Source of the DNA: Candidatus Aenigmatarchaeota archaeon
GTDB lineage: Archaea; Aenigmatarchaeota; Aenigmatarchaeia; GW2011-AR5
Direction of reading: 5' to 3'
DNA: 64,000 nucleotides
NCBI GenBank assembly: GCA_042584825.1
Contig: JBHOSK010000001.1
Span: forward strand, 1,777 to 65,776
In this document: positions 8,364-60,565 of the stretch, piece by piece
Layout of the letters: the number at the start of each line of letters is the position of its first letter
Numbering within the stretch: position 1 is the stretch's first letter
Program-made: the position numbers and the translations under genes
The notes under the pieces: generated by a model
Seen by the model: the letters and a program-made list of their open reading frames with translations, nothing else
Databases searched by the model: none
What the model was told of the DNA's origin: nothing

Positions 8364-9986
8364 TTGGTGATATTGTTGATTAAAAAAACAGCTGAAGATT
8401 TTGCAAAAGAACAAAAGGAAATAAGTGTCAGTGAATTTTTTGAAAAAAATAAGCATCTTTTAGGATTTGATAATCCTACTAAGGCATTATTGATGGCAGT
8501 AAAAGAAGCTGTAGATAATTCACTTGACGCAACAGAAGAAGCCGGTATCCTACCTGATATTGGTGTAAGGATAAAACAAACAGGTGAAGACAAACACAGA
8601 GTAAGTATCCAAGACAACGGACCGGGTATTGTGAAACAACACATACCAAACATATTTGGTAAACTATTATACGGAAGTAAATTTCATCGTTTAAGACAAT
8701 CAAGGGGTCAACAAGGTATAGGTATAAGTGCAGTTCTACTATACTCCCAATTAACTACAGGAAAATCAACCAAGGTTTGGTCAAGAATAGGAAAAGACAA
8801 ACCAATGAATTATTACGAACTTTTAATGAACACAATGAAAAATGAACCACAGATTATTAAAGAAGAACTGGTTGATAATGGTTTTGAAAACGGCACAAAA
8901 GTCCAATTAGAACTATTAGGAAGATATAGAAAAACGCAAAGTGTTGGTGATTATATAAAACAAACATCAATTGCAAACCCCTTTGCAAAAATTTCATATA
9001 CTGGTCCCGATGGAGTAAGAAAAACGTTCCCAAGAAGTGTTAATGAATTGCCAACCCCACCAAGAGAAATAAAAATACATCCGTATGGTGTTGAGTTTGG
9101 AGTTCTATTAAGAATGCTAGGTAGAACAAAAACAAAAACAATACAGGCTTTCTTGACAAATGAATTTTCATCAATAGGTGCAACATCAGCAAAAGAAATA
9201 TGTAAAGTAGCAAAACTTAAACCGAACGAAAAACCAGGATCATTAGAAAGAGAATCTATAGAAAAACTAATAAGAGGAATGCAGAAAGTAAAAGTTCAGC
9301 GTCCTCCTTTAGATTGTTTATCTCCTATTGGAGATATAGAATTTGAAAAAAGTTTAAGAAAAGAATATCCAGATGCAGAATTTATAGCAACCGGTGTTCG
9401 TGAACCAAGTGTTTACAAAGGAAACCCATTCCAAATAGAAGTTGGAATTGTTTATGGTAAGAAGCAGGATAAAATAGACGACGATGATGAAGATGTAATA
9501 GAAGATAGAAATCAGATAAAGATAATGCGATTTGCAAACAGAGTACCACTGCTTTATCAAGCAGGTGCGTGTGCAACCATCGAATCAATTAAAACAACGG
9601 CGTGGAAAAGATACGGTCTCACACAATCAGGAAATAACATACCATATGGACCAATGATATTGGTTATTCACATGTGTTCTGTTTGGGTACCATTTATATC
9701 AGAAAGTAAAGAAGCAATTGCACCATATCCTGAAATTGTTAAGGAGATGAGATTAGCTATTCAAGACACGGGAAGAAAACTGTCTCGTTATTTATCTGGT
9801 AAACGTCGTGCAGGCGAACAACAAAGAAGAATACAAATATTCGAAAGATATTCTTCAGAAGTTGCAACTGCAGTATCAGTTTTGACAGAAAAAGACAAAA
9901 AAATGATAGAAAAGAAAATGCAAGATTTAGTTAAAAGTAGATCAAAATCAAAAGAAACAGGTGAAAAAAATGAAAACCAAGAGTGA
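8364..9986 (+). CDS. top6B: DNA topoisomerase VI subunit B
   Basis: GHKL ATPase motifs (EAVDNSLDA, IQDNGPGI), H2TH and transducer regions; precedes and overlaps top6A. Confidence 0.9.
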   Translation: MVILLIKKTAEDFAKEQKEISVSEFFEKNKHLLGFDNPTKALLMAVKEAVDNSLDATEEAGILPDIGVRIKQTGEDKHRVSIQDNGPGIVKQHIPNIFGKLLYGSKFHRLRQSRGQQGIGISAVLLYSQLTTGKSTKVWSRIGKDKPMNYYELLMNTMKNEPQIIKEELVDNGFENGTKVQLELLGRYRKTQSVGDYIKQTSIANPFAKISYTGPDGVRKTFPRSVNELPTPPREIKIHPYGVEFGVLLRMLGRTKTKTIQAFLTNEFSSIGATSAKEICKVAKLKPNEKPGSLERESIEKLIRGMQKVKVQRPPLDCLSPIGDIEFEKSLRKEYPDAEFIATGVREPSVYKGNPFQIEVGIVYGKKQDKIDDDDEDVIEDRNQIKIMRFANRVPLLYQAGACATIESIKTTAWKRYGLTQSGNNIPYGPMILVIHMCSVWVPFISESKEAIAPYPEIVKEMRLAIQDTGRKLSRYLSGKRRAGEQQRRIQIFERYSSEVATAVSVLTEKDKKMIEKKMQDLVKSRSKSKETGEKNENQE

Positions 9987-11058
9987 AAAAAGAATTAACG
10001 AACGATTGAAAAAAATGGGTGACGATATACTGGCACACATTGAAAAAAAAGAAAATCCTAATTTAGAAATACCTCTACGTACACTATCCAATGTAATTTT
10101 TGATAAAAATACCCACACACTCAGACTTGGTGATAAAGCATCAAAAAGATATTTTTTCAATGTTGCACATTCTAAAAAATTCATGCAGACTTTAATGGTG
10201 GCTGCATTTTGTAAAAGTTTAAGAGCTGAGGATATACACGCAAGTATCAGAGAAATGTATTACAGTTTAAAGAGAACACTATCCGAAAGTAAGGAAAACA
10301 CCTTTGATGAACAATCAGAATCAGACCCAGTTATTATAGATCTCGAAGTTGCATTAGACGTGATAAGAGAAAATCTTCATTTAACTGCTGATAGACGAGG
10401 TTCTGTTGCTGGTAATGGAAGTATTGTAGATAGAGGAGATACAATAGACTGGTCGAAACTAGGAAGTGGTGGTTGGTCAATACCATCAACAACAAATGAA
10501 ATTGGGATAAATAAAATGAATGCAGATTTTGTTTTAGTAATCGAGAAAAACGCAGCATTTGATAGATTAAATGAAGACAAATTTTGGAAAAAACATAAGT
10601 GTATCTTAATAGGTACACAAGGTCAACCATCTCGTGGTGCACGTCTTCTGATACAACGACTAAATCAAGAAGCAAAATTACCTGTTTACGTTATGACAGA
10701 TGCAGATTCTTATGGGTTTTATATTTATTCTGTTATAAAATCGGGATCTATTGGTCTAGCGCATGTATCTGACAGAATATCAACACCAGCAGCCAAATTC
10801 ATAGGACTTACAATGTCAGACATATACGATTTTGATCTAAAAAATGTTACAATAAAGGCAAGAGAAAGGGACATAAAACGTGCTAAAGAACTAATGAATT
10901 ATGAATGGTTCAAAAAACCAGAATGGCAAAGAGAATTAAAATTAATGATCAAGAAAGGAGTAAAGGCAGAGATTGAAGCTTTAGCAAACAAAAGTCTAAA
11001 ATTCCTAACAGAAGACTATTTGCCAGAAAAAATCAAAAACAAAGAATTTTTAGATTAA
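9961..11058 (+). CDS. top6A: DNA topoisomerase VI subunit A (Spo11-like)
   Basis: Winged-helix/5Y-CAP and TOPRIM domain (VMTDADSYGFYI); true start may be an internal Met near 10015. Confidence 0.9.
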   Translation: MKKMKTKSEKRINERLKKMGDDILAHIEKKENPNLEIPLRTLSNVIFDKNTHTLRLGDKASKRYFFNVAHSKKFMQTLMVAAFCKSLRAEDIHASIREMYYSLKRTLSESKENTFDEQSESDPVIIDLEVALDVIRENLHLTADRRGSVAGNGSIVDRGDTIDWSKLGSGGWSIPSTTNEIGINKMNADFVLVIEKNAAFDRLNEDKFWKKHKCILIGTQGQPSRGARLLIQRLNQEAKLPVYVMTDADSYGFYIYSVIKSGSIGLAHVSDRISTPAAKFIGLTMSDIYDFDLKNVTIKARERDIKRAKELMNYEWFKKPEWQRELKLMIKKGVKAEIEALANKSLKFLTEDYLPEKIKNKEFLD

Positions 11059-20564: not shown

Positions 20565-20663
20565 GCTCCTGTCGTCTAGCCCGGCCCATTGCCGTTTTTG
20601 GCTAAGTCGAAAGGATATGAGCCTTTCGAGCTCAGGACGCGGGTTCGAATCCCGCCGGGAGCA
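20565..20663 (+). tRNA. tRNA-Glu (anticodon TTC) with a ~24-nt insertion (candidate non-canonical intron) in the D-arm
   Basis: Acceptor gctcctg/cgggagc; the 5' part gtctagcccggccca matches the archaeal tRNA-Glu D-arm; anticodon stem tgagc/gctca with loop cTTTCga; T-arm gcgggttcgaatcccgc. The 99-nt length needs an extra ~24 nt (ttgccgtttttggctaagtcgaaa) between D-loop and D-stem. Confidence 0.6.
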
Positions 20664-47011: not shown

Positions 47012-47078
47012 ATATTAAAATATCAAACCTTTTATTCATATGCAACGACGATCGGTTATATTATAGGTTATATATAAT

Positions 47079-47162
47079 GCGGGGGTGTCCGAGCGGCCAA
47101 AGGAGCAAGGTTGAGGGCCTTGTGGGTTAGTCCCTACGCGAGTTCGAACCTCGTCTCCCGCA
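47079..47162 (+). tRNA. tRNA-Leu (anticodon GAG)
   Basis: Acceptor gcggggg/ctcccgc, anticodon stem caagg/ccttg with loop ttGAGgg, long variable arm, T-arm gcgagttcgaacctcgt. Confidence 0.75.
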
Positions 47163-47206
47163 AATTCCCCTAATTTTTCATCATGTTTTATATACACAAA
47201 GTTTAA

Positions 47207-47412: not shown

Positions 47413-47742
47413 TTATGCACCAGGCCTTCTGTTTGATTCGTATTCAGGTCCTTCTACACACAGTCCTGCTCTACATTCAAGATAATCATTACAATAATCA
47501 TATCCAGTTAGCATACCAAAAGCATCCCTGCCGAAATACTGACAACAAGCTTCTCCTTCATAACCACAAGCTTCTCCTCTCTGTGAATCATAGTATTCTT
47601 CATTACCAGAGTTTGGATCTATGTATTCAAAGTTATCAGGATCATCGTAATAATCTCTTGCAGTAGTTCTGCCTGTTTCTGTACAGCCACTTGCGAAAAC
47701 GACCAACACCACAAGTAAAACTAATAAAATTTTTTTATTCAT
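47413..47742 (-). CDS. Small secreted Cys/Tyr/Asp-rich protein with lipobox-like signal peptide
   Basis: MNKKILLVLLVVLVVFASGC lipobox-like N-terminus followed by an acidic, Tyr- and Cys-rich domain. Confidence 0.4.
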   Translation of the reverse strand: MNKKILLVLLVVLVVFASGCTETGRTTARDYYDDPDNFEYIDPNSGNEEYYDSQRGEACGYEGEACCQYFGRDAFGMLTGYDYCNDYLECRAGLCVEGPEYESNRRPGA

Positions 47743-47795
47743 GTATACAATTCATTACACATTATTTTAAAAACTTATTTTTTGAATCTAATACC

Positions 47796-48065
47796 ATGAA
47801 ACGTGCTCACATGATTGTAAAGGGAAGTGTACAAGGCGTTTCTTTCCGTTCATTTACTCATTCTGTAGCAAATAATCTTAGTATAAATGGTTGGGTTAAA
47901 AATCTTCCACAGGGTGCGGTTGAGATAATCGCCGAAGGTGACGATGATAAAATTGAAAAATTTATTTCAGAAATAAAACAAGGACCATCCGCTTCGCAGG
48001 TTGATGACGTAATAATTGAATGGGAAGATCCAAAAGGCGATAAAGAATTCAAAATATTAATTTAG
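47796..48065 (+). CDS. acyP: Acylphosphatase
   Basis: VKGSVQGVSFRSFT ... GWVKNLPQGAVE motifs; start taken at the internal Met (the ORF-track start at 47691 overlaps the upstream gene). Confidence 0.75.
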   Translation: MKRAHMIVKGSVQGVSFRSFTHSVANNLSINGWVKNLPQGAVEIIAEGDDDKIEKFISEIKQGPSASQVDDVIIEWEDPKGDKEFKILI

Positions 48066-49431: not shown

Positions 49432-51144
<1,713 letters not shown>

Positions 51145-51236
51145 ATTTTTTTATTCAATTTTTCTCATCGGAGTAAAAATTGAAAAATACGACACGTGTG
51201 CAATAAGCTAATTGACTTCCGTCAATTAGCGGATCA

Positions 51237-51265
51237 CTAAATAACTATGCTTCAATGAAACTGAC
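51237..51265 (+). promoter_or_regulatory. 3' strand of the 16S pre-rRNA processing stem
   Basis: ctaaataactatgcttcaatgaaactgac pairs with 49364..49384; a perfect 10-bp hairpin gctaattgac-ttcc-gtcaattagc at 51207..51230 lies just upstream. Confidence 0.6.
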
Positions 51266-51331
51266 GTACTATTTTTTATTTTTCACGTCTTTTCTTTTCA
51301 TTTTTAAATAAACTAGACAAACTTAGGTATT

Positions 51332-51838
51332 ATGAGTAAACTCAAATCTTATCGTTCTCCTAAAGTAGAAGTTAAAGAAAGCCTTTTAGGAAATAAAGGT
51401 ATTTTCGCAAAAGAAGATATTAAGAAAGGGGAGATCGTTTTTATAAAAAATGGTCATATAGTGAATTTTGAAGAAGCAAAAAGATATAATGAAAATCTTG
51501 GAGATTTATACGCGCTTCAAATAAATGATGACTTTTTCTTAACACCAACCAACGAAGAAGAAGTTGAAAATACTGTAATATTTGTTAATCATTCATGCAA
51601 CCCAAATTTAGGTCCTGAAGGACAAATAACTTTTGTAGCTTTGAGAGACATAAAATCAGGAGAAGAGCTATGTTACGATTATTCAACATGTCATACTCAC
51701 GAATTCCAATTTGAATGCAGATGCGGTTCAAAAAGCTGTAGGAAAATGATTACAGGAAATGATTGGAAAATAAAAAAATTACAAGACAACTATGGAAACA
51801 ATTTTTCTAGTTACATAATTAGGAAAATTAAAAGTTAG
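51332..51838 (+). CDS. SET-domain protein-lysine methyltransferase
   Basis: NHSCNPN, ELCYDY and post-SET CxCxxxxC (CRCGSKSC) motifs. Confidence 0.75.
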   Translation: MSKLKSYRSPKVEVKESLLGNKGIFAKEDIKKGEIVFIKNGHIVNFEEAKRYNENLGDLYALQINDDFFLTPTNEEEVENTVIFVNHSCNPNLGPEGQITFVALRDIKSGEELCYDYSTCHTHEFQFECRCGSKSCRKMITGNDWKIKKLQDNYGNNFSSYIIRKIKS

Positions 51839-51844
51839 AACAAC

Positions 51845-52159
51845 TTACAACACAACATCATCTTTAGGATTAAATTCAGGAGAACAAATCATAAACCATT
51901 TCATCTTTCCAACAATGTTATACGGTGTATTCTTTGGGATAAAAATTACATCTTCTTTACTAACAACATTTTCTTCATCATTAATAACGAATTTACCTTC
52001 ACCTTCAACAATAAAATAAACTCTATCTTCATTAATACATTTTATTTTCCCATGATCTCCATCTATCTCTATTAGAGCTGCACTAAAATCAGAATTGATT
52101 TTATATTCATCTATTTTCATTGGTCCTCTTTCTTTTCTATCCCCTTTCTTTACTATCAT
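51845..52159 (-). CDS. Cupin-domain protein
   Basis: About 104 aa with the two-His/Glu cupin_2-like beta-barrel pattern (DHGKIKCINEDRVYFIVEGEGKF). Confidence 0.5.
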   Translation of the reverse strand: MIVKKGDRKERGPMKIDEYKINSDFSAALIEIDGDHGKIKCINEDRVYFIVEGEGKFVINDEENVVSKEDVIFIPKNTPYNIVGKMKWFMICSPEFNPKDDVVL

Positions 52160-52190
52160 AAATTCAATTAGAATTAATTTTATTTAAAAA

Positions 52191-53642
52191 TTACATATCC
52201 ATCCATTTTGGTCCAAACTTATTTTTTTTCTTATCACGTTTTGAATGATATGATCCACCACCAGTATATGCAGGATTTGATGAAGAGTATGTTTGTTCAC
52301 CACCGTATGTCAATCCTTCTGGAACATCAACTTTACCTTTATACCCCTGATCAGTTTCTGATGTTTTAATTTTCGTTGTCTCGGGTTTCCACAATTTGAA
52401 TAATTGTTTATCAAATTCCAAAAAAGCCTTTACCACGTGTTTAATATTAGCCGGCTTAAATCCCGTTTGAAAGCTCCACAAAACCTTTCTTTCTTTTGTA
52501 TCAATTGCATAAAGGTTTGCATCACCACCACCAAAATATAAAACACCGTTCACAATCAACGGCGATGATATTATAATATCACCAGTATCAAATTTCCATA
52601 CAAGTTTTCCATTTTCACCTATACAATACATAGAACCGTCAATAGACGCAACATATATCTTATTGTCATGGAAAATGGGTGTGTTGGTTATTGGACCATC
52701 AGCTTCGAACTTCCAGTTAAGCTTACCATCATAAGTTACAGAGTAAACATGCCTGTCAAAAGAAGAAAAATAAATATTTTTATTATCTAATAGCCCATGA
52801 CTACCAGTCATACCATCTGTTATAAATTTCCATTTAATTTCTCCATTAAGATCAGTACAATAAAAATTATTGTCACGCGAACCAAAATAAACAAAACCGT
52901 TTTCTGTTTTTGGACTTTTTTTATGTGATCGGTCTCTAAAATTCCATATTTCATTACCACGTTCATCAGCAATGACAGGAGAACCAAACCCACCAACAAA
53001 ATTTCCAGCAATAACTTCCCATTTCTTTGCCCCGTCAGGAGACAAACAATAGAATTTTTTATCAAAAGAACCAAAGTAAATATCATTATTTACAACAGCA
53101 GGAGAATTAACAATAGCATCACCAGTAATGAATTCCCATTTTTTCTCACCGCCCGTAGACAAACAATAAAATTTTTTGTCACCAGAACCAAAATATACTC
53201 TATCTTCAACAACACAGGGTGATGAAACTATTCTGTGACCAGTTTTGAATTTCCATAATAACTTCCCTTCAAGTGTCAATGCGTATAGAAAACCATCATA
53301 AGAACCAAAATATACAACACCATCGTGAATAACAGCAGATGAAAATATTACATCCCCAGCTATAAACTTCCACAACTCCTTTCCTGTTTCAGCAGAAAGT
53401 GCATAAAAGTTCTTGTTGCATGCGCCAAAATAAATCACGCCATTATGATAAATAGGAGTAGCCCAAATATTACCGCCTTGCGGCATATCATATGAATTAT
53501 CAAAAGTAGAAAAATCGTGTTTTGGAATTTCTTCCTTCACCCTTTCAATTGCATAATATTTTGTTTCCTCTTCTGGGCTTGGTTGTTCTTCCTTTTGCCT
53601 ACTATCCCTATACCCATCCATAATTATCACATATCCATCCAT
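52191..53642 (-). CDS. PQQ-repeat beta-propeller protein (paralogue 2) with conserved basic Gly/Ser/Tyr-rich C-terminal tail
   Basis: Eight or more repeats of the type LWKFxTG..I.SSP.I.....YFGS.D..FYAL; no N-terminal signal peptide; C-terminal 50 aa nearly identical to the upstream paralogue. Confidence 0.7.
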   Translation of the reverse strand: MDGYVIIMDGYRDSRQKEEQPSPEEETKYYAIERVKEEIPKHDFSTFDNSYDMPQGGNIWATPIYHNGVIYFGACNKNFYALSAETGKELWKFIAGDVIFSSAVIHDGVVYFGSYDGFLYALTLEGKLLWKFKTGHRIVSSPCVVEDRVYFGSGDKKFYCLSTGGEKKWEFITGDAIVNSPAVVNNDIYFGSFDKKFYCLSPDGAKKWEVIAGNFVGGFGSPVIADERGNEIWNFRDRSHKKSPKTENGFVYFGSRDNNFYCTDLNGEIKWKFITDGMTGSHGLLDNKNIYFSSFDRHVYSVTYDGKLNWKFEADGPITNTPIFHDNKIYVASIDGSMYCIGENGKLVWKFDTGDIIISSPLIVNGVLYFGGGDANLYAIDTKERKVLWSFQTGFKPANIKHVVKAFLEFDKQLFKLWKPETTKIKTSETDQGYKGKVDVPEGLTYGGEQTYSSSNPAYTGGGSYHSKRDKKKNKFGPKWMDM

Positions 53643-55057
53643 TTTGGACCAAATTTATTTTTCTTCTTATCACGCTTTGAGTGATATGATCCACCACCAG
53701 TGTATGCAGGATTCGATGATGAATATGTTCGTTCACCACCATATGTCAATCCTTCTGGAACATCAACTTTACCTTTGTATCCACGTTGAGACGCGTCTAC
53801 AGAACCAGAAGCACCACGCGTTTCTGGCTTCCAAACCTTGAATATTTTTTTATCAAACTCTGTTATAACATTAATATTTCTTTTTACATTTGATTGAAAC
53901 CCCTGACCAGTTTGAAATGTCCATAAAACATCACGTGTATCCATATCAAGAGCATATAGAAAAGTATCCATCGATCCAAAGATAATCATATTTTTATGTA
54001 TTATTGGTGAGGAACCGACAATACCACCAGTGTTAAACTTCCACAATGTTTCGCCCTCAGTTGAAACAGCATAAAAATTCTTGTCAAAGGAACCAAAGTA
54101 AACAACGTTATTATGAATAAACGGAGACGATATTATAGGCCCACCCGATTCAAATTTCCATCTAAAATCACCATTAAGTGTTAATGCATACAGATGTCTG
54201 TCAAGTGAACCAAAATACACAGAACCATTAGAAGCAAAAGGCGCAGAAAGAGGCGCACCATCAAACATCTTTTTCCATAACAACTTTCCATCCAATGACA
54301 CAGAATAGATATTTTTATCTAAAGAACCAAACAGAACAGAACCGTCTTTAACTGTTGGTGATTTTTTATGACATCGTTGTCTAAAAGAAGATATTGAGTT
54401 TTTGTCAACAAGAATTGGACTTGTAAATATATGATTAAAAGCAGGGAATTTCCATTGTAAACTTCCATCATCAGACAAACAATACATATTTTTATCCTTT
54501 GATCCTATGAATATCATATCATTTGCAACCGCAGCTGTTGTATCAAACGGTCCATCTGCTTCAAATTTCCACAACAAATCACCATCAAAAGACAGTGAAT
54601 AGAAAAAATTATCACCACCGCCGATGTAAATTCTATCTCCAACAATTACTGGAGAGTCAACAATTTTATTCCCAGTTTTATATTTCCATAATAATTTTCC
54701 ATTATCAGCAGAAAGACAATATATAAAACCATCAAAGGAAGCAACAAAAAGCTTGTCATCAACAATAGTTGGTGAAGATATTACCACTCCACCAGTTCTA
54801 TATTGCCATTTCATTTTTCCATCAAGATCAAGAGCATAAACATATTGATCACACCCACCAAAATATATTGTATCATTATATAGAAACGCGCTTGAACCAA
54901 TACTACCACTTACTTCTATGTCCCATATATCATCAAAACCAGGTTCTTTTGTTTCTTGTTTCGGATCTTCCTTTCTTTTTATAGCATAATATTTTTCTTC
55001 TTTCTCGTTCAACCCCTTCTCTGATTCATCCGATATATCAGATTTATACCCGTCCAT
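53627..55057 (-). CDS. PQQ-repeat beta-propeller protein (paralogue 1) with the same C-terminal tail
   Basis: Same repeat architecture; ends YKGKVDVPEGLTYGGERTYSSSNPAYTGGGSYHSKRDKKKNKFGPKWMDM; its stop region overlaps the start of paralogue 2. Confidence 0.7.
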   Translation of the reverse strand: MDGYKSDISDESEKGLNEKEEKYYAIKRKEDPKQETKEPGFDDIWDIEVSGSIGSSAFLYNDTIYFGGCDQYVYALDLDGKMKWQYRTGGVVISSPTIVDDKLFVASFDGFIYCLSADNGKLLWKYKTGNKIVDSPVIVGDRIYIGGGDNFFYSLSFDGDLLWKFEADGPFDTTAAVANDMIFIGSKDKNMYCLSDDGSLQWKFPAFNHIFTSPILVDKNSISSFRQRCHKKSPTVKDGSVLFGSLDKNIYSVSLDGKLLWKKMFDGAPLSAPFASNGSVYFGSLDRHLYALTLNGDFRWKFESGGPIISSPFIHNNVVYFGSFDKNFYAVSTEGETLWKFNTGGIVGSSPIIHKNMIIFGSMDTFLYALDMDTRDVLWTFQTGQGFQSNVKRNINVITEFDKKIFKVWKPETRGASGSVDASQRGYKGKVDVPEGLTYGGERTYSSSNPAYTGGGSYHSKRDKKKNKFGPKWMDM

Positions 55058-55112
55058 ATTTTCAACTTGAAATAGAACCTTTATAAAACTAAACAGTCAA
55101 GAATTGTGTTAT

Positions 55113-55185
55113 GGGCTGATAGATCAATTGGAAGATCGCTACCCTTGCAAGGTAGAGGCTCCGGGTTCGAGTCCCGGTCGGTCCA
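55113..55185 (+). tRNA. tRNA-Ala (anticodon TGC)
   Basis: Acceptor gggctga/tcggtcc, anticodon stem ctacc/ggtag with loop cTTGCaa, T-arm tccgggttcgagtcccgg; sits in the classical archaeal position between 16S and 23S. Confidence 0.8.
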
Positions 55186-55203
55186 TATTTTTTATTCAGT
55201 AAG

Positions 55204-56001
55204 ATGATAAATATGTCACAAGAAAAAATTTTCATTGAAAACCACGGACAAAAACTTGCAGCTGTGATGCACGTACCAGTTGATCCGACAAAGGTCGGCA
55301 TAATACTTGTACACGGATTCACAAGCAGTAAAAGAGAAGAAGCAGGTGATAAGTATGCTCGTCTTGCAGACGCTTTATGTAATAAAGGGTTTCTTGTACT
55401 TCGTTTTGACTTTCGTGGTCATGGTGAAAGTGAAGGCTTATTTGAAGATACTTCTTTATCATCGGAGTCAAGCGATCTAAACAAAATGATTTCATTCTTA
55501 AAAGAAAATGGGATTGAAAAAATTGGTGTTGTTGGATGCAGTTTAGGAGGATTTGTAACTTTGTTAACCTACCACAACAACATGGATTGTGTTGTGCTTT
55601 GGTACCCTGCTATATTTCTGAAAGAGTCTGACATATTCAAAGAAATGAAGTCTCGTGAAAAAGAACTGGAAAAAGACGGCAAATTATTTGCCAGACAACT
55701 TGAAGGAAAGAAATATTACATAGGTAAACAAATGTGGGAAGAGTGGAATAGCATAGATGTTTTTTCAAAAGTAAAAGATGTAAAATGTCCTATATTATTT
55801 TTAACAGGAAATAAAGATGTGAACGTTGATCCCAGCCAATCAGAAAAAGCTTTTGCTGTTGCTTCTGAGCCCAAAAGGCTCGAAATAATAGATGGTGCAG
55901 CACATGCATGGAGAGACGAAGATTGGAATTTAGTTGAAGGCTATTTCTTGCACGCAACGAAACTTACAGTTGACTGGTTTGTAGAGTGGCTAAAACCCTA
56001 A
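55204..56001 (+). CDS. Alpha/beta-hydrolase (esterase/dienelactone-hydrolase-like)
   Basis: GCSLGG nucleophile elbow, HGFTSS oxyanion region, His near the C-terminus. Confidence 0.7.
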   Translation: MINMSQEKIFIENHGQKLAAVMHVPVDPTKVGIILVHGFTSSKREEAGDKYARLADALCNKGFLVLRFDFRGHGESEGLFEDTSLSSESSDLNKMISFLKENGIEKIGVVGCSLGGFVTLLTYHNNMDCVVLWYPAIFLKESDIFKEMKSREKELEKDGKLFARQLEGKKYYIGKQMWEEWNSIDVFSKVKDVKCPILFLTGNKDVNVDPSQSEKAFAVASEPKRLEIIDGAAHAWRDEDWNLVEGYFLHATKLTVDWFVEWLKP

Positions 56002-56010
56002 CATAAGAAA

Positions 56011-56095
56011 AACCTTTTAATACGGTCGAGCATGAATTCTTAGTATGAAGTTTATGATTATAGCAATAACAATTGCATCTATATTATTAATTAGT
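56011..56095 (+). repeat. Direct repeat copy 1 (upstream region plus signal-peptide coding of the Kazal lipoprotein genes)
   Basis: aaaaccttttaatacggtcgagcatgaattctta..atgaagtttatgattatagcaata recurs at 56771..56855 with 2-3 mismatches. Confidence 0.7.
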
Positions 56096-56770
56096 GGATG
56101 CACTACACAACCCAATAATGATGAAAACAGTGCAGCAAGATCAGCAATGGAAATTGGATGGTTATTTGATATTGATTCTGGTGAAAAATACTTTGTAAGT
56201 ATTGGTTATTATCAAAACATAATGGACAAGGTTTATACACAAGAAGAAATAATTCAACTTAGTGGTAGCTTAGAACCAACAATAACTCACACACAAGAAG
56301 AATGGCTTGCAAGTTGTGAAGAATTACAATTACAAATGTACGTAAGAGAATGTTCAGAAGAAGGATGGCAAACAGAATGTTCTGGAAGTAATGAAAAACC
56401 ATGTCTAAGCTCTTTTGAATATTGGCAAAGCATGTGCGAATCAGCCAATGCTCGTGCAAGAAGTTGCATGGATCATCAATATTGGTATTATGAACCAATC
56501 TTAATTCAATACATGGAAGAAAACGGAATCGAAGGTGAAATAATTGATGCTGTTGTGGCTTATTTCCCAATAACTGGTACAGGTTTACATCCAGGAACTT
56601 ATGGCGATAACAGAATATATTGTCAAGAAGACCAAAGAGGTGTAGGTGCTTGTACAATGGATTACACACCAGTTTGTGGTTTCTCAGATGACGGGTCAGA
56701 AACCTATTCTAATGGCTGTGTTGCATGCACCAACGAGAACGTAAATTACTACATTCCAGGCGAATGCTGA
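56045..56770 (+). CDS. Lipoprotein with C-terminal Kazal-type inhibitor-like domain (paralogue 1)
   Basis: Signal peptide with ISGC lipobox; C-terminal C...YTPVCGFSDDGSETYSNGCVAC...C matches the Kazal Cys/PVCG/TY.N.C spacing. Confidence 0.55.
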   Translation: MKFMIIAITIASILLISGCTTQPNNDENSAARSAMEIGWLFDIDSGEKYFVSIGYYQNIMDKVYTQEEIIQLSGSLEPTITHTQEEWLASCEELQLQMYVRECSEEGWQTECSGSNEKPCLSSFEYWQSMCESANARARSCMDHQYWYYEPILIQYMEENGIEGEIIDAVVAYFPITGTGLHPGTYGDNRIYCQEDQRGVGACTMDYTPVCGFSDDGSETYSNGCVACTNENVNYYIPGEC

Positions 56771-56855
56771 AAACCTTTTAATACGGTCGAGCATGAATTC
56801 TTATCATGAAGTTTATGATTATAGCAATAGCAATTGCGTCTATATTAATAATAAG
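56771..56855 (+). repeat. Direct repeat copy 2 (tandem duplication junction of the Kazal lipoprotein genes)
   Basis: See copy 1. Confidence 0.7.
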
Positions 56856-57207
56856 TGGATGTACTACACAACCCAACAACAATGAAAACAACAGCCCAAC
56901 AAATAACTGCAATTACGATGATCCACACAGGAACTATATAAGCAAAGATCCGGAACGATGTGCAGTAATGGATTTTGGATGTATGCCACCTTCTACAGGA
57001 TTTGACGATGAATGTGGTTGTGGTTGTGAAACCATCGGTGATGAAATACAATGTACAGAAAAAGAGATGGATCCAGCATGTATAGCTATATATGAACCTG
57101 TTTGTGGCTACACAGGCGTTGGTCACAGCTATAATTATCCTAATGAATGTGTAGCATGCAAGATGTCAGCTGTTTTCTATTACATCCCAGGCGAATGCCC
57201 AGAATAA
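56806..57207 (+). CDS. Lipoprotein with C-terminal Kazal-type inhibitor-like domain (paralogue 2)
   Basis: Near-identical signal peptide MKFMIIAIAIASILIISGC; C-terminal C.AIYEPVCGYTGVGHSYNYPNECVAC...C. Confidence 0.55.
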   Translation: MKFMIIAIAIASILIISGCTTQPNNNENNSPTNNCNYDDPHRNYISKDPERCAVMDFGCMPPSTGFDDECGCGCETIGDEIQCTEKEMDPACIAIYEPVCGYTGVGHSYNYPNECVACKMSAVFYYIPGECPE

Positions 57208-57550
57208 ATAAGCTTTTAAACTTTTCTCATTAAATAATGTAAGTTGTGGGGGTCAGAAATCCTTGCATTTCTAAGAAAATAGCGTATGAAAATACGTTGA
57301 TACAGTTAATAGGTAAATACCGAAGCTGTTCAGAGTCAGCTTCGTAATGTGGCAGGTTGCGTTGTTGTGGTAGAGGTTGAGTGAATATGAAAACAAAAAA
57401 AATCATTTCATCTTTTTCTGAGCAGATTTCAGTATGTACAATGAGCAAGAGATGTTAATACCGTCTATGTTCAAGACAGCTCACAAGCAAACGCTTGTTG
57501 GGTGGTGTGCAATAGGTTAATTGTATTAATCAAACAATATAACCGATGAA

Positions 57551-57569
57551 GCAATCACAAGTACCAGAA
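57551..57569 (+). promoter_or_regulatory. 5' strand of the 23S pre-rRNA processing stem
   Basis: gcaatcacaagtaccagaa is the exact reverse complement of 60590..60608. Confidence 0.65.
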
Positions 57570-57571
57570 CA

Positions 57572-60565
57572 AAGATAGCTAGCTCCCACGCTATTTGGTG
57601 GATGGATTGGTTCAAGTAGAGATGAAGGTCGTGGTAAGCTGCGATAAGCCTGGGCGAGACGCATGCAGTCTTTGAACTCAGGATTGCCGAATGGGACATC
57701 CCATTTACTTGCAATCGGTGCAAACTGGTTGTAAGGTCGTACGCGGAGAATTGAAACATCTTAGTAACCGCAGGAAGAGAAAGCAAAAGCGATGCCGTCA
57801 GTAAAGGCGATTGAAATCGGCATAGAACAAACCGAATCTGCCTTGAGAGAGAGCAGAGATGTGGGGTTTGGACTTGGGTTGTGCCTAATCAGCCAGTCTG
57901 AAGTGTGCTGGAAAGCACCGCGATAAAGGGTGATAGCCCCGTAAGAGAAAGTTGAAAGGTATATACCAAGTATCCAGAGTATGGCTCATCTGATTTTGAG
58001 TCAGAATACAGGAGACATCTACTCCTAATTCTAAACATAACTTGAGTCCGATAGTGTATTAGTACTGTGAGGGAAATCTGAAAAGTAACCTTAATAGGTG
58101 CTGAAAAGAACCTGAAACCATGTAGCTAGAGTAGGACGGGTAAGGCCATCGCAAGATGGAAGAATCCGTTGTCCGTTTCGAAAAACGGGGCAGGGAGTTT
58201 ATCTTACTGGCAAGGTTAATTTATTGTAGCCATAGGGAAACCGAGTGTGAAAACGCGTTAAGTCAGTAGGGTAAGACCCGAAACCTGACGATCTATTCCT
58301 GGGCAAGATGAAGGCGTGGGAAACCGCGCTCGAGGTCTGCCACTGGTGTTGGTACTAACCACTCAGGTGACCTGGGAATAGGGGTGAAAAGCCAATCGAG
58401 TCGGGTAATAGCTGGTTCCTCCTGAAATGTATCGGAGTACAGCCTCATCTGTATTTGTTAGTGGAGTAGAGCACTGATTAGGTAACCAAGGGGAGAAATC
58501 CCCAGTTATCTTGTCAAACTCCAAACACATTAACATTTGGATGGGAGTGAGGGCGTCTGGAGTAAGTTTGACGTCCGAGAGGGAAACAACCCAGACCGTA
58601 GTTAAGGCCCCCAAATATCGATTAAGTGTAATTGAAAGTTGTCTTGAACCACAGACAATGGGAAGGTTGGCTTAGAAGCAGCCATCCTTTAAACAACGCG
58701 TAACAGCGGACCCATCAAGGTTTGTGGCGCTGAAAATGGACGGGACTAAATCGATTGCCGATACTACGGAGTTATACATCTGTATAACTGGTAAGGAGGC
58801 GTACTGTTAGGGCAGAAGCATCTGCGTAAGTGGGTGTGGACCTTTCAGTAATGAAGATCCTGCCGGGAGTAGCATGCAAGTTGGGTGAGAATCCCAACCA
58901 CCTTAGGGGCCAGGGTTCCCCAGTAAATCTTATATGCTGGGGGTTAGTCGGTCCTAACCGAATCCTTAAGAAGGCATTCGGGAAAGGGAATGGCGTTAAT
59001 ATTCGTCAACTATTTAGTAACTATCTTGTCTGAGACATTTCAGGATATCTTGACTAGGATCATCGTCCTAGTTAAGCATTGAAACATGGGGAGTGGCGTA
59101 ATGTCGAGAACCGTGTGAATGTGCGAATAGCTTGGTGTATGCTGAGTTCAGGAGATTCCTGGAATCCGTGAAAATCAGACAAGTAACTATGCTAAATATC
59201 CGTACTCAGAACCGACACAGGTGCCCCTCGCTGAGTAGGCGAAGGTGTTCGGAATAATCAACCTTAGGGAATTCGGCAAGTTAGCCATGTATCTTAGGTA
59301 CAAGTGGTGCCAGATTCGAGAGAATCTGGTCGCAGTGACAAGGGAAATCCGACTGTTTAACAAAAACGTAGTTGGCTGCTAAGCAGAAATGCCTTGTATA
59401 GCCAATGAGTCGTGGCCACTAGTGGTGTGTGAAAGCCGATTCCAATCGGAAGAAGCCCCACTGTAGGCCGGCCCTAACTCTGAGGGTCTTAAGGTAGCGT
59501 AATCCCTTGCCGATTAATTGTCGGCCCGCATGATAGATTCACGAGATTTCCATTGTCCCAAGGTTGACTCCGGCGAAACTATTGTTCTGGTGATTAGGCC
59601 AGAGACCTCTAGTGGGAAGAGTAGACCCCGTGGAGCTTTACTGCAGGCTGTTGTTGCGGTAGAGATGTGAATGTATAGCGTAGGTAGGAGCTTCGGCACC
59701 AATGTAACACTACCCTTTCATGTCTCTACTGCTCATACGGAGCAAATTCGTAGACATCGACAGTTAGGCAGTTTGACTGGGGCGGTACGCCCTTGAAAGA
59801 ATATCAAGGGCCCTCTAAGCTCAACTTATCAGGGTCAGAAATCCTGAGTTAAGTGTAAGGATAAAAGTTGGGTTGATTGGACTTCTACAAGCATGATGTC
59901 CAACCGCGAAAGCGTGACCTAGCGATACGCAGTTTGGCCTAGATGGCTGGCTGTGACATGAGAAAAGCTACCCCGGGGATAATGGTGTCGTAGCGGGTGA
60001 GAGTTCTTATCCGCGGCTACGAGACTAGTGTCTATTCCTCACTAAAGAGAATGACTAGACAAACATAGGTAAACGTAGCTATAGCGTTGATAGTGTAAAG
60101 TCGATTTTCCTAGCACATCAAGTGCGATGCGGAGAACAAATCGACCCCGCGTGTTGCGGCGTCGCTGTCGGCTCGCCCTCTCCTGGCTGTGCAGCAGCAG
60201 CCAAGGGTACTGGAGTCCACAGGTTAAAAGGGCACGTTAGCTGGGTTCAGAACGGCGTGAGCCAGTTTGGTCTATATCTGCTAGAGGTGTTGCTGTCTGA
60301 GGGGAAGGAAGGATAAGTACGAAAGGAACATCCTTCCGTGGCTTCTGGTTTATCTGTTGTCTGACAAGGCAGTGCAGAGTAGCTACGCCACGTTTGATAA
60401 GTGCTGAAAGCATCTAAGCACGAAGCAGCTCTCGAAAAGAGACAGCTTGGCACCGACAAGACGATCGGTTATGGGACAGGGATGTAAGTATCGAGCTTCG
60501 GCGAGATATTAAGTCCACTGTACCCTACGCCAATGCTAGCCTTTAAAGCGCAGAAGTTGCGGCTT
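57572..60565 (+). rRNA. 23S ribosomal RNA (ends approximate)
   Basis: GGTAAGCTGCGATAAGCCTGGG ... CCGAATGGGACATCCC 5'-domain signatures; sarcin-ricin-loop and PTC-region sequences further on; bracketed by a processing stem. Confidence 0.85.

What the first reader, a model, noticed from the sequence alone, without database searches (positions are those of the whole stretch)
52191..55057. Tandem PQQ-propeller paralogues sharing a near-identical 50-aa basic Gly/Ser/Tyr-rich C-terminal tail and lacking signal peptides
Both proteins (476 aa and 483 aa) consist of 8-9 PQQ-like blades. PQQ-repeat proteins are normally secreted, yet both start MDGY followed by an acidic/Lys-rich region (...KYYAI(K/E)R...) with no hydrophobic leader. 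The C-termini are ~96% identical (Y(K/R)GKVDVPEGLTYGGE(Q/R)TYSSSNPAYTGGGSYHSKRDKKKNKFGPKWMDM).

The corresponding ~150 bp of DNA at 52191..52345 and 53627..53785 are ~90% identical direct repeats. The upstream gene's stop overlaps the downstream gene's MDGYVIIMDGY start, which marks a duplication junction. The tail could be a non-classical sorting, anchoring or ribosome/RNA-binding module.
Basis: seen in the sequence. Interest (0 to 1): 0.6.

Follow-up and report, generated by a model that had tools for sequence, protein, structure and literature searches.

The report
Phased-tyrosine tail on archaeal propeller proteins
Two neighbouring genes of a tiny DPANN archaeon encode signal-less eight-bladed propeller proteins ending in a conserved floppy tail, with tyrosines spaced every 6-7 residues and a lysine-rich end, that gene conversion has kept almost identical in both copies; the tail is real and under selection, but its partner is unknown.

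Summary
Two co-oriented minus-strand genes (53627-55057 and 52191-53621) encode 476-aa PQQ-like propellers. They are 44% identical in the propeller and 50/51 identical in the last 51 residues. The organism is a Candidatus Aenigmatarchaeota archaeon (DPANN).

The tail is not duplicated junk. Its architecture is helix, W-K-P-E-T, linker, four tyrosines 6-7 residues apart, a Lys run, then Trp. This recurs in diverged form at the C-terminus of a family of about 420-477-aa leaderless propellers. In 80 members one tail Tyr is invariant, and Tyr-Tyr gaps are 6-8 and never 1-4. A profile of the module found 34 proteins among 1.84 billion representatives. All real hits are C-termini of this propeller family, so it is not a portable module.

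AlphaFold2 gives a confident 8-bladed propeller and a disordered, undocked tail. The near-identity reflects a roughly 160-bp gene-conversion tract (tail dS 0.50, body 1.73) followed by strong purifying selection (12 synonymous, 1 non-synonymous change).

The "MDGYVIIMDGY" start is the upstream gene's ...KWMDM-stop read in another frame, not a duplication junction.

Function is inferred only: a disordered multivalent tether to a partner shared by both paralogues. No Pfam, PDB or literature match exists for the tail.

The parts
53627..55057 (-). Gene A (P0001), 476 aa: acidic disordered N-terminus, 8-bladed PQQ-like propeller, helix, WKPET, phased-Tyr polybasic tail; stop TGA at 53627-53629
52191..53621 (-). 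Gene B (P0002), 476 aa from the ATG at 53621 (an alternative in-frame ATG at 53642 would give 483 aa and overlap gene A by 16 nt); same architecture; stop TAA at 52191-52193
53903..54925 (-). Gene A propeller domain (residues ~45-385), 8 blades, pLDDT >95; conserved basic insertion FRQRCHKKSP in blade 5
52467..53489 (-). Gene B propeller domain (residues ~45-385), 44% identical to the gene A propeller
53819..53884 (-). Gene A post-propeller helix (residues 392-408) and the FKVWKPET motif (W409, P411 invariant; E412 at least 90% conserved in subfamily alignment A3)
53627..53782 (-). Gene A tail, last 51 codons plus stop (residues 426-476: GYKGKVDVPEGLTYGGERTYSSSNPAYTGGGSYHSKRDKKKNKFGPKWMDM); Tyr at 427, 439, 445, 452, 458; copy 1 of the gene-conversion tract
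52191..52346 (-). Gene B tail, last 51 codons plus stop; copy 2 of the tract; 12 synonymous and 1 non-synonymous (R443Q) codon differences from copy 1
55080..55087 (-). TTTATAAA, an archaeal TATA-box-like element; 22 nt separate it from the gene A ATG, which implies a leaderless bicistronic A-B transcript (inference from standard archaeal promoter geometry, read by eye with no background control)
   Evidence: sequence read directly
52181..52190 (-). T5 run immediately after the gene B stop (a possible archaeal oligo-T terminator), overlapping TTTAAATA, the likely TATA box of the downstream cupin gene (51845-52159); read by eye with no background control
   Evidence: sequence read directly; for the cupin

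Best explanation
The locus is a bicistronic pair of cytoplasmic 8-bladed PQQ-like propeller scaffold proteins. They are not quinoproteins and not BamB. They belong to a family so far named only from Candidatus Aenigmatarchaeota.

Every family member carries an intrinsically disordered C-terminal extension. In this subfamily it consists of a helix that packs on the propeller, an invariant W-x-P-E motif, a variable linker, four tyrosines phased 6-7 residues apart, a Lys run and a terminal Trp.

Shown:
- The tail is a family hallmark, restricted to this family and under strong purifying selection.
- It is predicted disordered and not docked on its own propeller.
- Its 98% identity between the two paralogues comes from a ~160-bp gene-conversion tract. 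That tract is younger than the duplication and has since been maintained by selection.

Inferred: the tail works as a multivalent short-linear-motif tether, with Tyr 'stickers' separated by polar spacers plus a polybasic/aromatic end. It attaches the propeller to a repetitive or anionic partner common to both paralogues. Candidates are the cytoplasmic membrane face, nucleic acid, or the blades of neighbouring propellers. My single best guess is self- or hetero-association of propellers through the tail at an anionic surface. The partner's identity is not established.
For: Architecture and fold: Pfam PQQ_2 and Beta-prop_ACSF4. The AF2 model has residues 40-385 at pLDDT >95 in 8 blades, a helix at 392-408, and residues 410-476 and 1-27 below 50. 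A second model, for a distant subfamily member, gives the same picture. The closest structures are designed Cake8/Bagel8, YxaL, BamB and M. maripaludis 3HXJ.

Family hallmark: in the 80-sequence alignment Y439 is invariant and Y458 is at least 90% conserved, with consensus W.PE...Y......Y.....Y.....Y...K.KY. In the subfamily alignment W25, P27, Y61 and Y74 are invariant. Tyr-Tyr gaps in the last 50 residues are 132 at 6, 53 at 7, 41 at 8 and none at 1-4, against about 104 expected at 1-4 after shuffling.

Restriction: the module profile finds 34 proteins at E<=1e-3 among 1.84e9. All are C-termini of ~420-477-aa propellers or fragments of them, apart from one spurious hit.

Conversion plus selection: tail dS 0.50 and dN 0.008 versus body dS 1.73 and dN 0.53, with a sharp boundary at codon ~426. 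Fisher p = 8e-4 for pS. The chance of at most 1 non-synonymous change among 13 changed codons is 9e-6. Propeller identities for A-B, A-P0133 and A-P0004 are all 40-45%, while tail identities are 98%, 48% and 27%.

Cytoplasmic location: no hydrophobic N-terminal segment. The neighbouring genes at 56045 and 56806 carry ordinary lipobox leaders.

Operon: 5 nt separate the gene A stop from the gene B ATG, and a TATA-like box lies 22 nt upstream of gene A.
Against: - No partner has been identified. Gene neighbourhoods of nine homologues share no operon partner.
- AF2 does not dock the tail anywhere. Tail charge does not covary with propeller or N-terminal charge across 80 members, Spearman |rho| < 0.1.
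- One subfamily ends in an acidic DSDEEAL/F rather than a polybasic patch. An anionic-surface anchor therefore cannot be the universal function.
- Paralogues in two other genomes have unlike tails. Identical tails are not a requirement of the family, and the conversion here could be selectively neutral.
- The tail dS rests on only ~33 synonymous sites.
Confidence: 0.5

Rival explanations
1. The tail is a non-classical export, sorting or cell-surface anchoring signal, and the propellers act outside the cell, for example in host attachment by this DPANN symbiont.
For: PQQ-like propellers of bacteria and many archaea are secreted or surface proteins. Examples are L007, a Thermoplasmatales homologue with a leader and a C-terminal PKD-type extension, and the surface-propeller literature for ARMAN and nanohaloarchaea. 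The tail is conserved and C-terminal, like archaeosortase signals.
Against: The tail has no hydrophobic or transmembrane stretch and no PGF/PEF-type motif. All 80 aligned family members were selected as leaderless. Classical lipobox leaders are used by genes 1 kb away. No secretion genes recur next to homologues.
Confidence: 0.12
2. The tail is an RNA- or ribosome-binding extension (Tyr stacking plus a Lys run), and the location inside the 16S-tRNAAla-23S interval reflects a role in ribosome biogenesis.
For: The pair lies between the 16S (49432-51145) and 23S (57574-60544) genes. Homologue P0010 sits directly downstream of a 16S gene. Other homologues lie near ribosomal-protein, tRNA-synthetase and RNA-modification genes. 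The C-terminal region carries a net charge of +7 to +9.
Against: The pair is on the opposite strand to the rRNA genes and has its own TATA-like box. Most homologues have no rRNA nearby. Small DPANN genomes are dominated by information-processing genes, so adjacency carries little weight. The acylphosphatase/16S/PQQ/hydrolase order looks like inherited synteny. One subfamily has an acidic C-terminal end.
Confidence: 0.15
3. The tail is kept identical purely by extreme purifying selection, without gene conversion. Alternatively it is a neutral by-product of conversion in meaningless low-complexity sequence.
For: Only one amino-acid difference in 51 residues. The sequence is Gly/Ser/Lys-rich, which could suggest low complexity.
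Against: Selection alone fails. Synonymous divergence is 3.5-fold lower in the tail than in the body. Orthologous tails in other species are only 27-48% identical, while propellers are equally diverged.

Neutral junk fails. The 12:1 ratio of synonymous to non-synonymous changes since conversion has p = 9e-6. In addition, tyrosines are invariant and their spacing is strict across 80 members.
Confidence: 0.05
4. The phased tyrosines are substrates rather than binding motifs. They would be sites of phosphorylation, cross-linking or another modification, possibly by the propeller itself or a partner enzyme, acting as a switch.
For: The Tyr positions are conserved far more strictly than the flanking residues. 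Tyr is often preceded by Pro/Asn-Pro (NPAY, NPY, SPY), a turn-forming context. The fold also hosts enzymes such as tetrathionate hydrolase and quinoproteins.
Against: No kinase or modifying enzyme recurs in the neighbourhoods. No catalytic family threshold is reached. There is no direct evidence of modification.
Confidence: 0.1

Closest known systems
PQQ-like (non-quinoprotein) 8-bladed beta-propeller repeat proteins: Pfam PQQ_2 (PF13360) and Beta-prop_ACSF4 (PF13570); solved examples M. maripaludis 3HXJ, Bacillus YxaL, E. coli BamB, designed Cake8
   Same: Same fold and repeat family. Pfam E-values are 1e-32 to 1e-68. Foldseek gives TM (target) 0.9 to Cake8/Bagel8 and 0.75 to YxaL and BamB. 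The A2 profile hits 3HXJ at 5e-87.
   Different: No signal peptide or lipobox, and disordered termini at both ends. A family-specific C-terminal helix-WKPE-phased-Tyr-polyK module has no Pfam or PDB counterpart. BamB and YxaL are exported proteins.
PQQ-dependent dehydrogenases (quinoproteins; TIGR03075, TIGR03074)
   Same: 8-bladed propeller with the tryptophan-docking type of repeat.
   Different: Scores of 61-71 bits against a 480-bit cut-off. The propeller is ~340 aa rather than ~570 aa, and there is no leader. DPANN archaea are reported to lack complete cofactor pathways including PQQ (for Mia14). These proteins are not expected to bind PQQ.
Sticker-and-spacer (prion-like) low-complexity domains with evenly spaced aromatic residues, e.g. 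the FUS/hnRNPA1 LCDs with [G/S]Y[G/S] motifs (my own knowledge, not tested against those sequences)
   Same: Disordered polar sequence in which Tyr residues are evenly spaced and never adjacent. In this pair the contexts are TYGG, TYSS, AYTG and SYHS. Lys could add cation-pi valence.
   Different: Only 4-5 tyrosines in ~35 residues. Individual Tyr positions are alignable and invariant across a family, which is more like a defined linear-motif array than a compositional LCD. No evidence of condensation.
Archaeal C-terminal sorting signals recognised by archaeosortases (PGF-CTERM and relatives) (my own knowledge)
   Same: Conserved, family-associated C-terminal extension ending in basic residues.
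   Different: Those signals are tripartite (motif, transmembrane helix, basic cluster) and accompany an N-terminal Sec leader. Here there is neither a hydrophobic helix nor a leader.
Polybasic-aromatic peripheral membrane-binding tails, e.g. the MARCKS effector domain and the K-Ras polybasic region (my own knowledge)
   Same: The terminal KRDKKKNKFGPKW, and the KKKKEPWER, KKKKDWRPF and KKKSKWLF ends of relatives, combine a Lys run with Trp/Phe in a disordered tail.
   Different: No lipid-modification site. One subfamily ends in an acidic sequence. Membrane binding is untested.

Membership tests
PQQ-like beta-propeller repeat superfamily (Pfam PQQ_2 / Beta-prop_ACSF4) | Sequence match above the curated Pfam gathering score | tested here: met
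   PF13570 scores 231.9 and 207.6 bits (cut-off 133). PF13360 scores 117.5 and 113.6 bits (cut-off 27.6).
PQQ-like beta-propeller repeat superfamily (Pfam PQQ_2 / Beta-prop_ACSF4) | Closed 8-bladed propeller of four-stranded blades | tested here: met
   The AF2 model has eight 4-strand blades at pLDDT >95. Foldseek gives TM 0.9 to 8-bladed Cake8/Bagel8.
PQQ-dependent dehydrogenase (quinoprotein) | Match to the TIGR03075/TIGR03074 equivalog-level models, about 570-aa catalytic propeller | tested here: not met
   61 and 70.9 bits against a 480-bit cut-off; 17.8 and 27.6 bits against 833.
PQQ-dependent dehydrogenase (quinoprotein) | PQQ- and Ca/Ln-ligand residues and the vicinal Cys-Cys ring | not tested
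BamB (outer-membrane protein assembly factor) | Match to TIGR03300/NF008351 above cut-off, a lipoprotein signal peptide, and a Gram-negative BAM context | tested here: not met
   132 and 107 bits against a 285-bit cut-off. No leader. The organism is an archaeon. JGI's 'BamB' names for relatives are over-annotation.
Aenigmatarchaeota leaderless tailed-propeller family (defined here, alignments A2/A3) | About 420-477 aa, no leader, 8 blades, then W-x-P-E and three to five Tyr at 6-8-residue spacing near the C-terminus | tested here: met
   Both genes align end to end. W409, P411, E412, Y439, Y445, Y452 and Y458 occupy the conserved columns. P0001 scores 66 bits, E = 2.5e-13, against the module profile in the 1.84e9 library; it was one of the sequences used to build that profile.
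Archaeosortase-type C-terminal sorting signal (PGF-CTERM and relatives) | Signature motif followed by a hydrophobic transmembrane helix and a basic cluster, together with an N-terminal Sec leader | tested here: not met
   The tail contains no hydrophobic stretch (sequence). No leader. No NCBIfam or Pfam hit for the tail.
Sticker-and-spacer / prion-like low-complexity domain | Disordered polar region with uniformly patterned aromatic residues | tested here: inconclusive
   Uniform Tyr spacing is met and predicted disorder is met. However, there are only 4-5 aromatic residues, and phase behaviour cannot be tested with these tools.

The most novel reading that the evidence does not exclude
The phased-tyrosine tail is a zipper that inserts one Tyr per blade into successive inter-blade pockets of a neighbouring, highly symmetric propeller. 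Six residues in extended form span roughly 20 A, comparable with the blade-to-blade spacing at the rim. The family would then polymerise head to tail into a cytoplasmic or cortical lattice. That would be a previously unrecognised self-assembling scaffold or coat system specific to Aenigmatarchaeota. In this organism the two paralogues would co-assemble because conversion keeps their tails interchangeable.
Probability: 0.1. Interest if true: 0.7.

Novelty: new variant of a known kind. Interest (0 to 1): 0.35.

Why it matters
DPANN archaea have tiny genomes, so multi-copy conserved families of unknown role are likely to matter for their biology. This analysis defines such a family. It is currently annotated only as 'PQQ-binding-like beta-propeller repeat protein', or wrongly as BamB.

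The analysis also pinpoints the family's distinguishing feature. This is a disordered tail whose tyrosines are conserved in position and spacing while the rest drifts, and which is under strong purifying selection (dN/dS about 0.02) in this genome.

That gives experimenters a short, well-defined peptide (about 35 residues) and clear mutants (Y to A, K to E) for finding the partner. The locus is also a clean small example of concerted evolution confined to one functional segment of tandem paralogues in an archaeon.

It does not by itself answer any long-standing question.

Tried and rejected
1. Tail-only and tail-profile searches with the search for homologous proteins. The first did not even recover the query's own proteins, so these negatives are uninformative. 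The exhaustive HMMER search replaced them.

2. The search for related loci on genome contigs. The single-protein scan returned only distant secreted PQQ proteins, such as the Thermoplasmatales L007 with a leader and PKD domain.

3. A degenerate DNA pattern for P[ED]G[LM]TYGGExTY in JGI metagenomes gave 0 hits.

4. Extracellular-vesicle or coat link. A 2023 preprint called HVO_1020/Hlac_2402 a PQQ propeller, but the published paper reclassifies it as a HEAT-PBS alpha-solenoid. Rejected.

5. Cis-docking of the tail. Two AF2 runs leave it below pLDDT 50, and there is no charge covariation.

6. Tail as a degenerate ninth blade. No blade-like match was found, and Tyr spacing of 6-7 differs from the blade's Y-x9-Y.

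7. Defence or phage association. No PADLOC hit, and PHROGs gave only generic propeller hits.

8. Conserved operon partner. None in nine neighbourhoods.

9. The listing of cluster members for organism names returned none.

10. Literature searches for this family in Aenigmarchaeota or DPANN found nothing specific.
Full report
**What is there.** The window is from a low-GC archaeon. It carries archaeal 16S (49432-51145) and 23S (57574-60544) rRNA genes and tRNA-Ala (55112-55186). The two proteins are identical to NCBI entries named 'PQQ-binding-like beta-propeller repeat protein [Candidatus Aenigmatarchaeota archaeon]' (P0001, P0002). This is a DPANN phylum.

On the minus strand, gene A (53627-55057, 476 aa) is followed by gene B. 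Gene A has a TTTATAAA box 22 nt upstream of its ATG, with no room for a longer ORF. Gene B's preferred ATG (53621) lies 5 nt after gene A's TGA. A T5 run follows gene B's stop. By standard archaeal promoter geometry this reads as one leaderless bicistronic transcript. That is an inference, and both signals were read by eye without a background control.

**Checking the observation.**
- BLASTP gives 48% identity overall, with an unbroken identical C-terminus.
- Codon by codon, the last 51 codons differ at 13 codons. Twelve changes are synonymous and one gives R/Q.
- The DNA repeat is 52185-52346 versus 53621-53782, 162 nt at 90% identity.
- Both proteins hit PQQ_2 and Beta-prop_ACSF4 well above threshold.
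- Neither has a hydrophobic N-terminal segment. The genes at 56045 and 56806 show textbook lipobox leaders, so the organism does use classical signals.

- There are 8 blades, not 8-9.
- Tail identity is 98%, and there is no K/R difference.
- Gene B is most likely 476 aa. Its 'first' MDGY is simply gene A's ...AAA TGG ATG GAT ATG TGA read in the +1 frame. The second MDGY aligns with gene A's start and with the family's M-[DE]-x-Y N-terminus.

**The tail is a family feature, not a private duplication.** A full-length search returned hundreds of ~420-477-aa leaderless propellers. All ten family members that carry an organism name are Aenigm(at)archaeota.

Their C-termini look different at first sight but align. 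In 80 sequences the consensus after the last blade is W.PE...Y......Y.....Y.....Y...K.KY. Y439 is invariant and Y458 is at least 90% conserved. In the 22-member subfamily closest to this pair, W25, P27, Y61 and Y74 of the module are invariant.

Tyr-Tyr gaps in the last 50 residues of the 80 proteins are 6 (132 cases), 7 (53) or 8 (41). None falls at 1-4, where shuffling predicts about 104.

A profile of the module (helix, WKPET, tail; 84 positions) was run exhaustively against 1.84 billion representative proteins. It found 34 hits at E<=1e-3. All place the module at the very C-terminus of a ~420-477-aa propeller or a contig-truncated fragment of one. The single exception is a spurious 2337-aa repeat protein.

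The nearest foreign tails make orthology obvious: P0133 ...NVPDGMTYGGEQTYASSATGYTSGVSYNAARKKRDMPF, and P0146 and P0147. Equally, the tail is not a portable module found on other domain types. Pfam, NCBIfam and PDB have nothing for it.

**Why the two tails are nearly identical.** Nei-Gojobori estimates:

| Region | dS | dN |
|---|---|---|
| Tail (last 51 codons) | 0.50 | 0.008 |
| Body | 1.73 | 0.53 |

Nucleotide identity jumps from about 0.5-0.65 to 0.9 at codon ~426, and identity ends at the stop codon. The lower proportion of synonymous differences in the tail has Fisher p = 8e-4.

In the propeller, A, B, P0133 and P0004 are about equidistant (40-45%). A neighbour-joining tree does not even pair A with B. 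In contrast, tail identities are 98% (A-B), 48-50% (versus P0133) and 27% (versus P0004).

The tail therefore normally evolves as fast as the propeller. Its identity here requires a more recent common origin, namely a ~160-bp gene-conversion tract (or an equivalent 3'-end replacement) between old tandem paralogues. Since then, 12 synonymous against 1 non-synonymous change (p = 9e-6 against the body's ratio) shows strong purifying selection on both copies.

Homogenisation is not a family rule. P0019 and P0022 are unlinked paralogues of one genome with different tails, though their ends are similar (KKKKEPWER and KKQKELWEK). The two paralogues 2 kb apart in L015 also differ.

**Structure.** AlphaFold2 with the 80-sequence alignment gives mean pLDDT 85.5:
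- Residues ~40-385 form an 8-bladed propeller at pLDDT >95.
- Residues 392-408 form a helix.
- Residues 1-27 and 410-476 fall below 50, so the tail is not docked.

A second model, for a distant subfamily whose tail is YKSRITYQVSTQY..KGKYQVDSDEE[AE][LF], gives the same picture. Foldseek and PDB profile searches find designed symmetric propellers (Cake8, Bagel8), M. maripaludis 3HXJ, YxaL, BamB and tetrathionate hydrolase. Quinoprotein and BamB equivalog models are missed by large margins.

**Mechanism: shown and inferred.** Shown:
- Leaderless 8-bladed scaffold-type propeller.
- Disordered, acidic N-terminus (net -5) and disordered, basic C-terminal region (+7 to +9).
- Position-specific conservation and strict phasing of tyrosines.
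- Strong selection on the tail, and conversion between the paralogues.

Inferred: the tail is a multivalent linear-motif tether, made of Tyr stickers, polar spacers and a Lys/Trp end. It binds a partner common to both paralogues. I cannot identify that partner.
- Nine homologue neighbourhoods share no operon partner.
- Tail charge does not covary with propeller charge.
- One subfamily ends acidic rather than basic, so the phased tyrosines, not the Lys run, are the universal element.

Candidate partners are an anionic surface (membrane or nucleic acid) or neighbouring propellers. Six residues in extended form span roughly the blade-to-blade spacing, which is only a geometric argument. A surface-sorting role is unlikely because the tail has no hydrophobic segment and the protein has no leader. 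It is not excluded.

**Genomic setting.** The pair sits inside a broken 16S-tRNAAla-23S operon, together with SET-domain, cupin, alpha/beta-hydrolase and two lipoprotein genes. Relatives share pieces of this order:
- Acylphosphatase, 16S, PQQ in L003.
- Acylphosphatase, HTH, PQQ in L005.
- PQQ ... alpha/beta-hydrolase in L015.
- In the window itself, acylphosphatase at 47691-48065.

I read this as inherited synteny, not as evidence of a ribosomal function.

**Comparison with the known, and verdict.** The propeller is an ordinary member of the PQQ-like repeat superfamily. The tail is an undescribed, lineage-restricted, selected disordered module. In design it resembles evenly patterned aromatic 'sticker' regions and polybasic-aromatic tethers, but it is not a member of any curated family.

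I rate this a new variant of a known kind. Interest is moderate to low at 0.35. It would rise if the tail proved to drive self-assembly.

Noticed in passing
window 49432-60544: The rRNA operon is broken up. 16S (49432-51145), tRNA-Ala (55112-55186) and 23S (57574-60544) are all on the + strand but are separated by seven protein genes, three of them on the opposite strand: SET-domain 51332-51838, cupin 51845-52159, the PQQ pair, alpha/beta-hydrolase 55204-56001, and two lipoprotein genes.
   Followed up: partly
window 49432-51145: The 16S gene spans 1714 nt against a 1478-position Rfam model, so it carries about 236 nt of insertions. One 43-nt insertion is visible near model position 637. Whether these are introns or expansion segments was not determined.
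   Followed up: partly
L003 4970-9800: The Aenigmatarchaeota relative carrying P0010 has an SSU rRNA gene split over ~4.8 kb, with a LAGLIDADG_3 ORF (9125-9772) inside or at its 3' part. The PQQ homologue lies immediately downstream. In L015 a LAGLIDADG_3 ORF (10552-10899) precedes a PQQ paralogue, with no rRNA detected.
   Followed up: partly
window 47691-48065; L003 4395-4637; L005 9296-9565: An acylphosphatase gene lies a short distance upstream of the PQQ locus in three genomes, with or without 16S in between. This is conserved synteny. An alpha/beta-hydrolase (Hydrolase_4/Peptidase_S15) downstream recurs in the window (55204-56001) and in L015 (14168-14926).
   Followed up: partly
L001 11600-11815, L002 1492-1915, L013 9493-9923, L014 9385-9839: A HicB (usually with HicA) toxin-antitoxin module sits immediately downstream of the PQQ-family gene on contigs from three different assemblies or samples (P0007, P0058, P0086). 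This could be an insertion hotspot or chance.
   Followed up: no
window 56045-56770 and 56806-57207: This is a second tandem paralogue pair. Two Cys-rich lipoprotein-like proteins share a near-identical lipobox leader, MKFMIIAI(T/A)IASIL(L/I)ISGCTTQPNN, but have divergent bodies. One has a Kazal_1 hit. It may be another case of segmental homogenisation in this genome.
   Followed up: no
window 53621-53642, 52194-52208 and 55046-55057: The last codons of both tails (ATGGATGGATATG, encoding WMDM) resemble the start of both genes at 11/12 and 10/12 nt (ATGGATGGGTAT and ATGGACGGGTAT, encoding MDGY) in a shifted frame. [WF]-M near the C-terminus is also present in orthologues (PPWMP, PPFMR). The resemblance is therefore probably coincidental, or related to translational coupling.
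   Followed up: partly
window 54340-54400 (gene A residues ~220-239) and the equivalent in gene B: There is a conserved basic insertion in blade 5. It reads FRQRCHKKSP in A, FRDRSHKKSP in B, and FRKFSNKDPGK in the L015 paralogue. It interrupts the otherwise regular blade pattern and may be a subgroup-specific binding loop.
   Followed up: no
window 20594-20663 and 47078-47163: The two tRNA tools disagree. Rfam reports a weak tRNA at 20594-20663 (33 bits) that ARAGORN does not call. ARAGORN calls tRNA-Leu(gag) at 47078-47163, which Rfam does not list at gathering score.
   Followed up: no
window 51332-51838: A SET-domain (lysine methyltransferase-type) protein is encoded right after the 16S gene (Pfam SET, 2.2e-18).
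   Followed up: no
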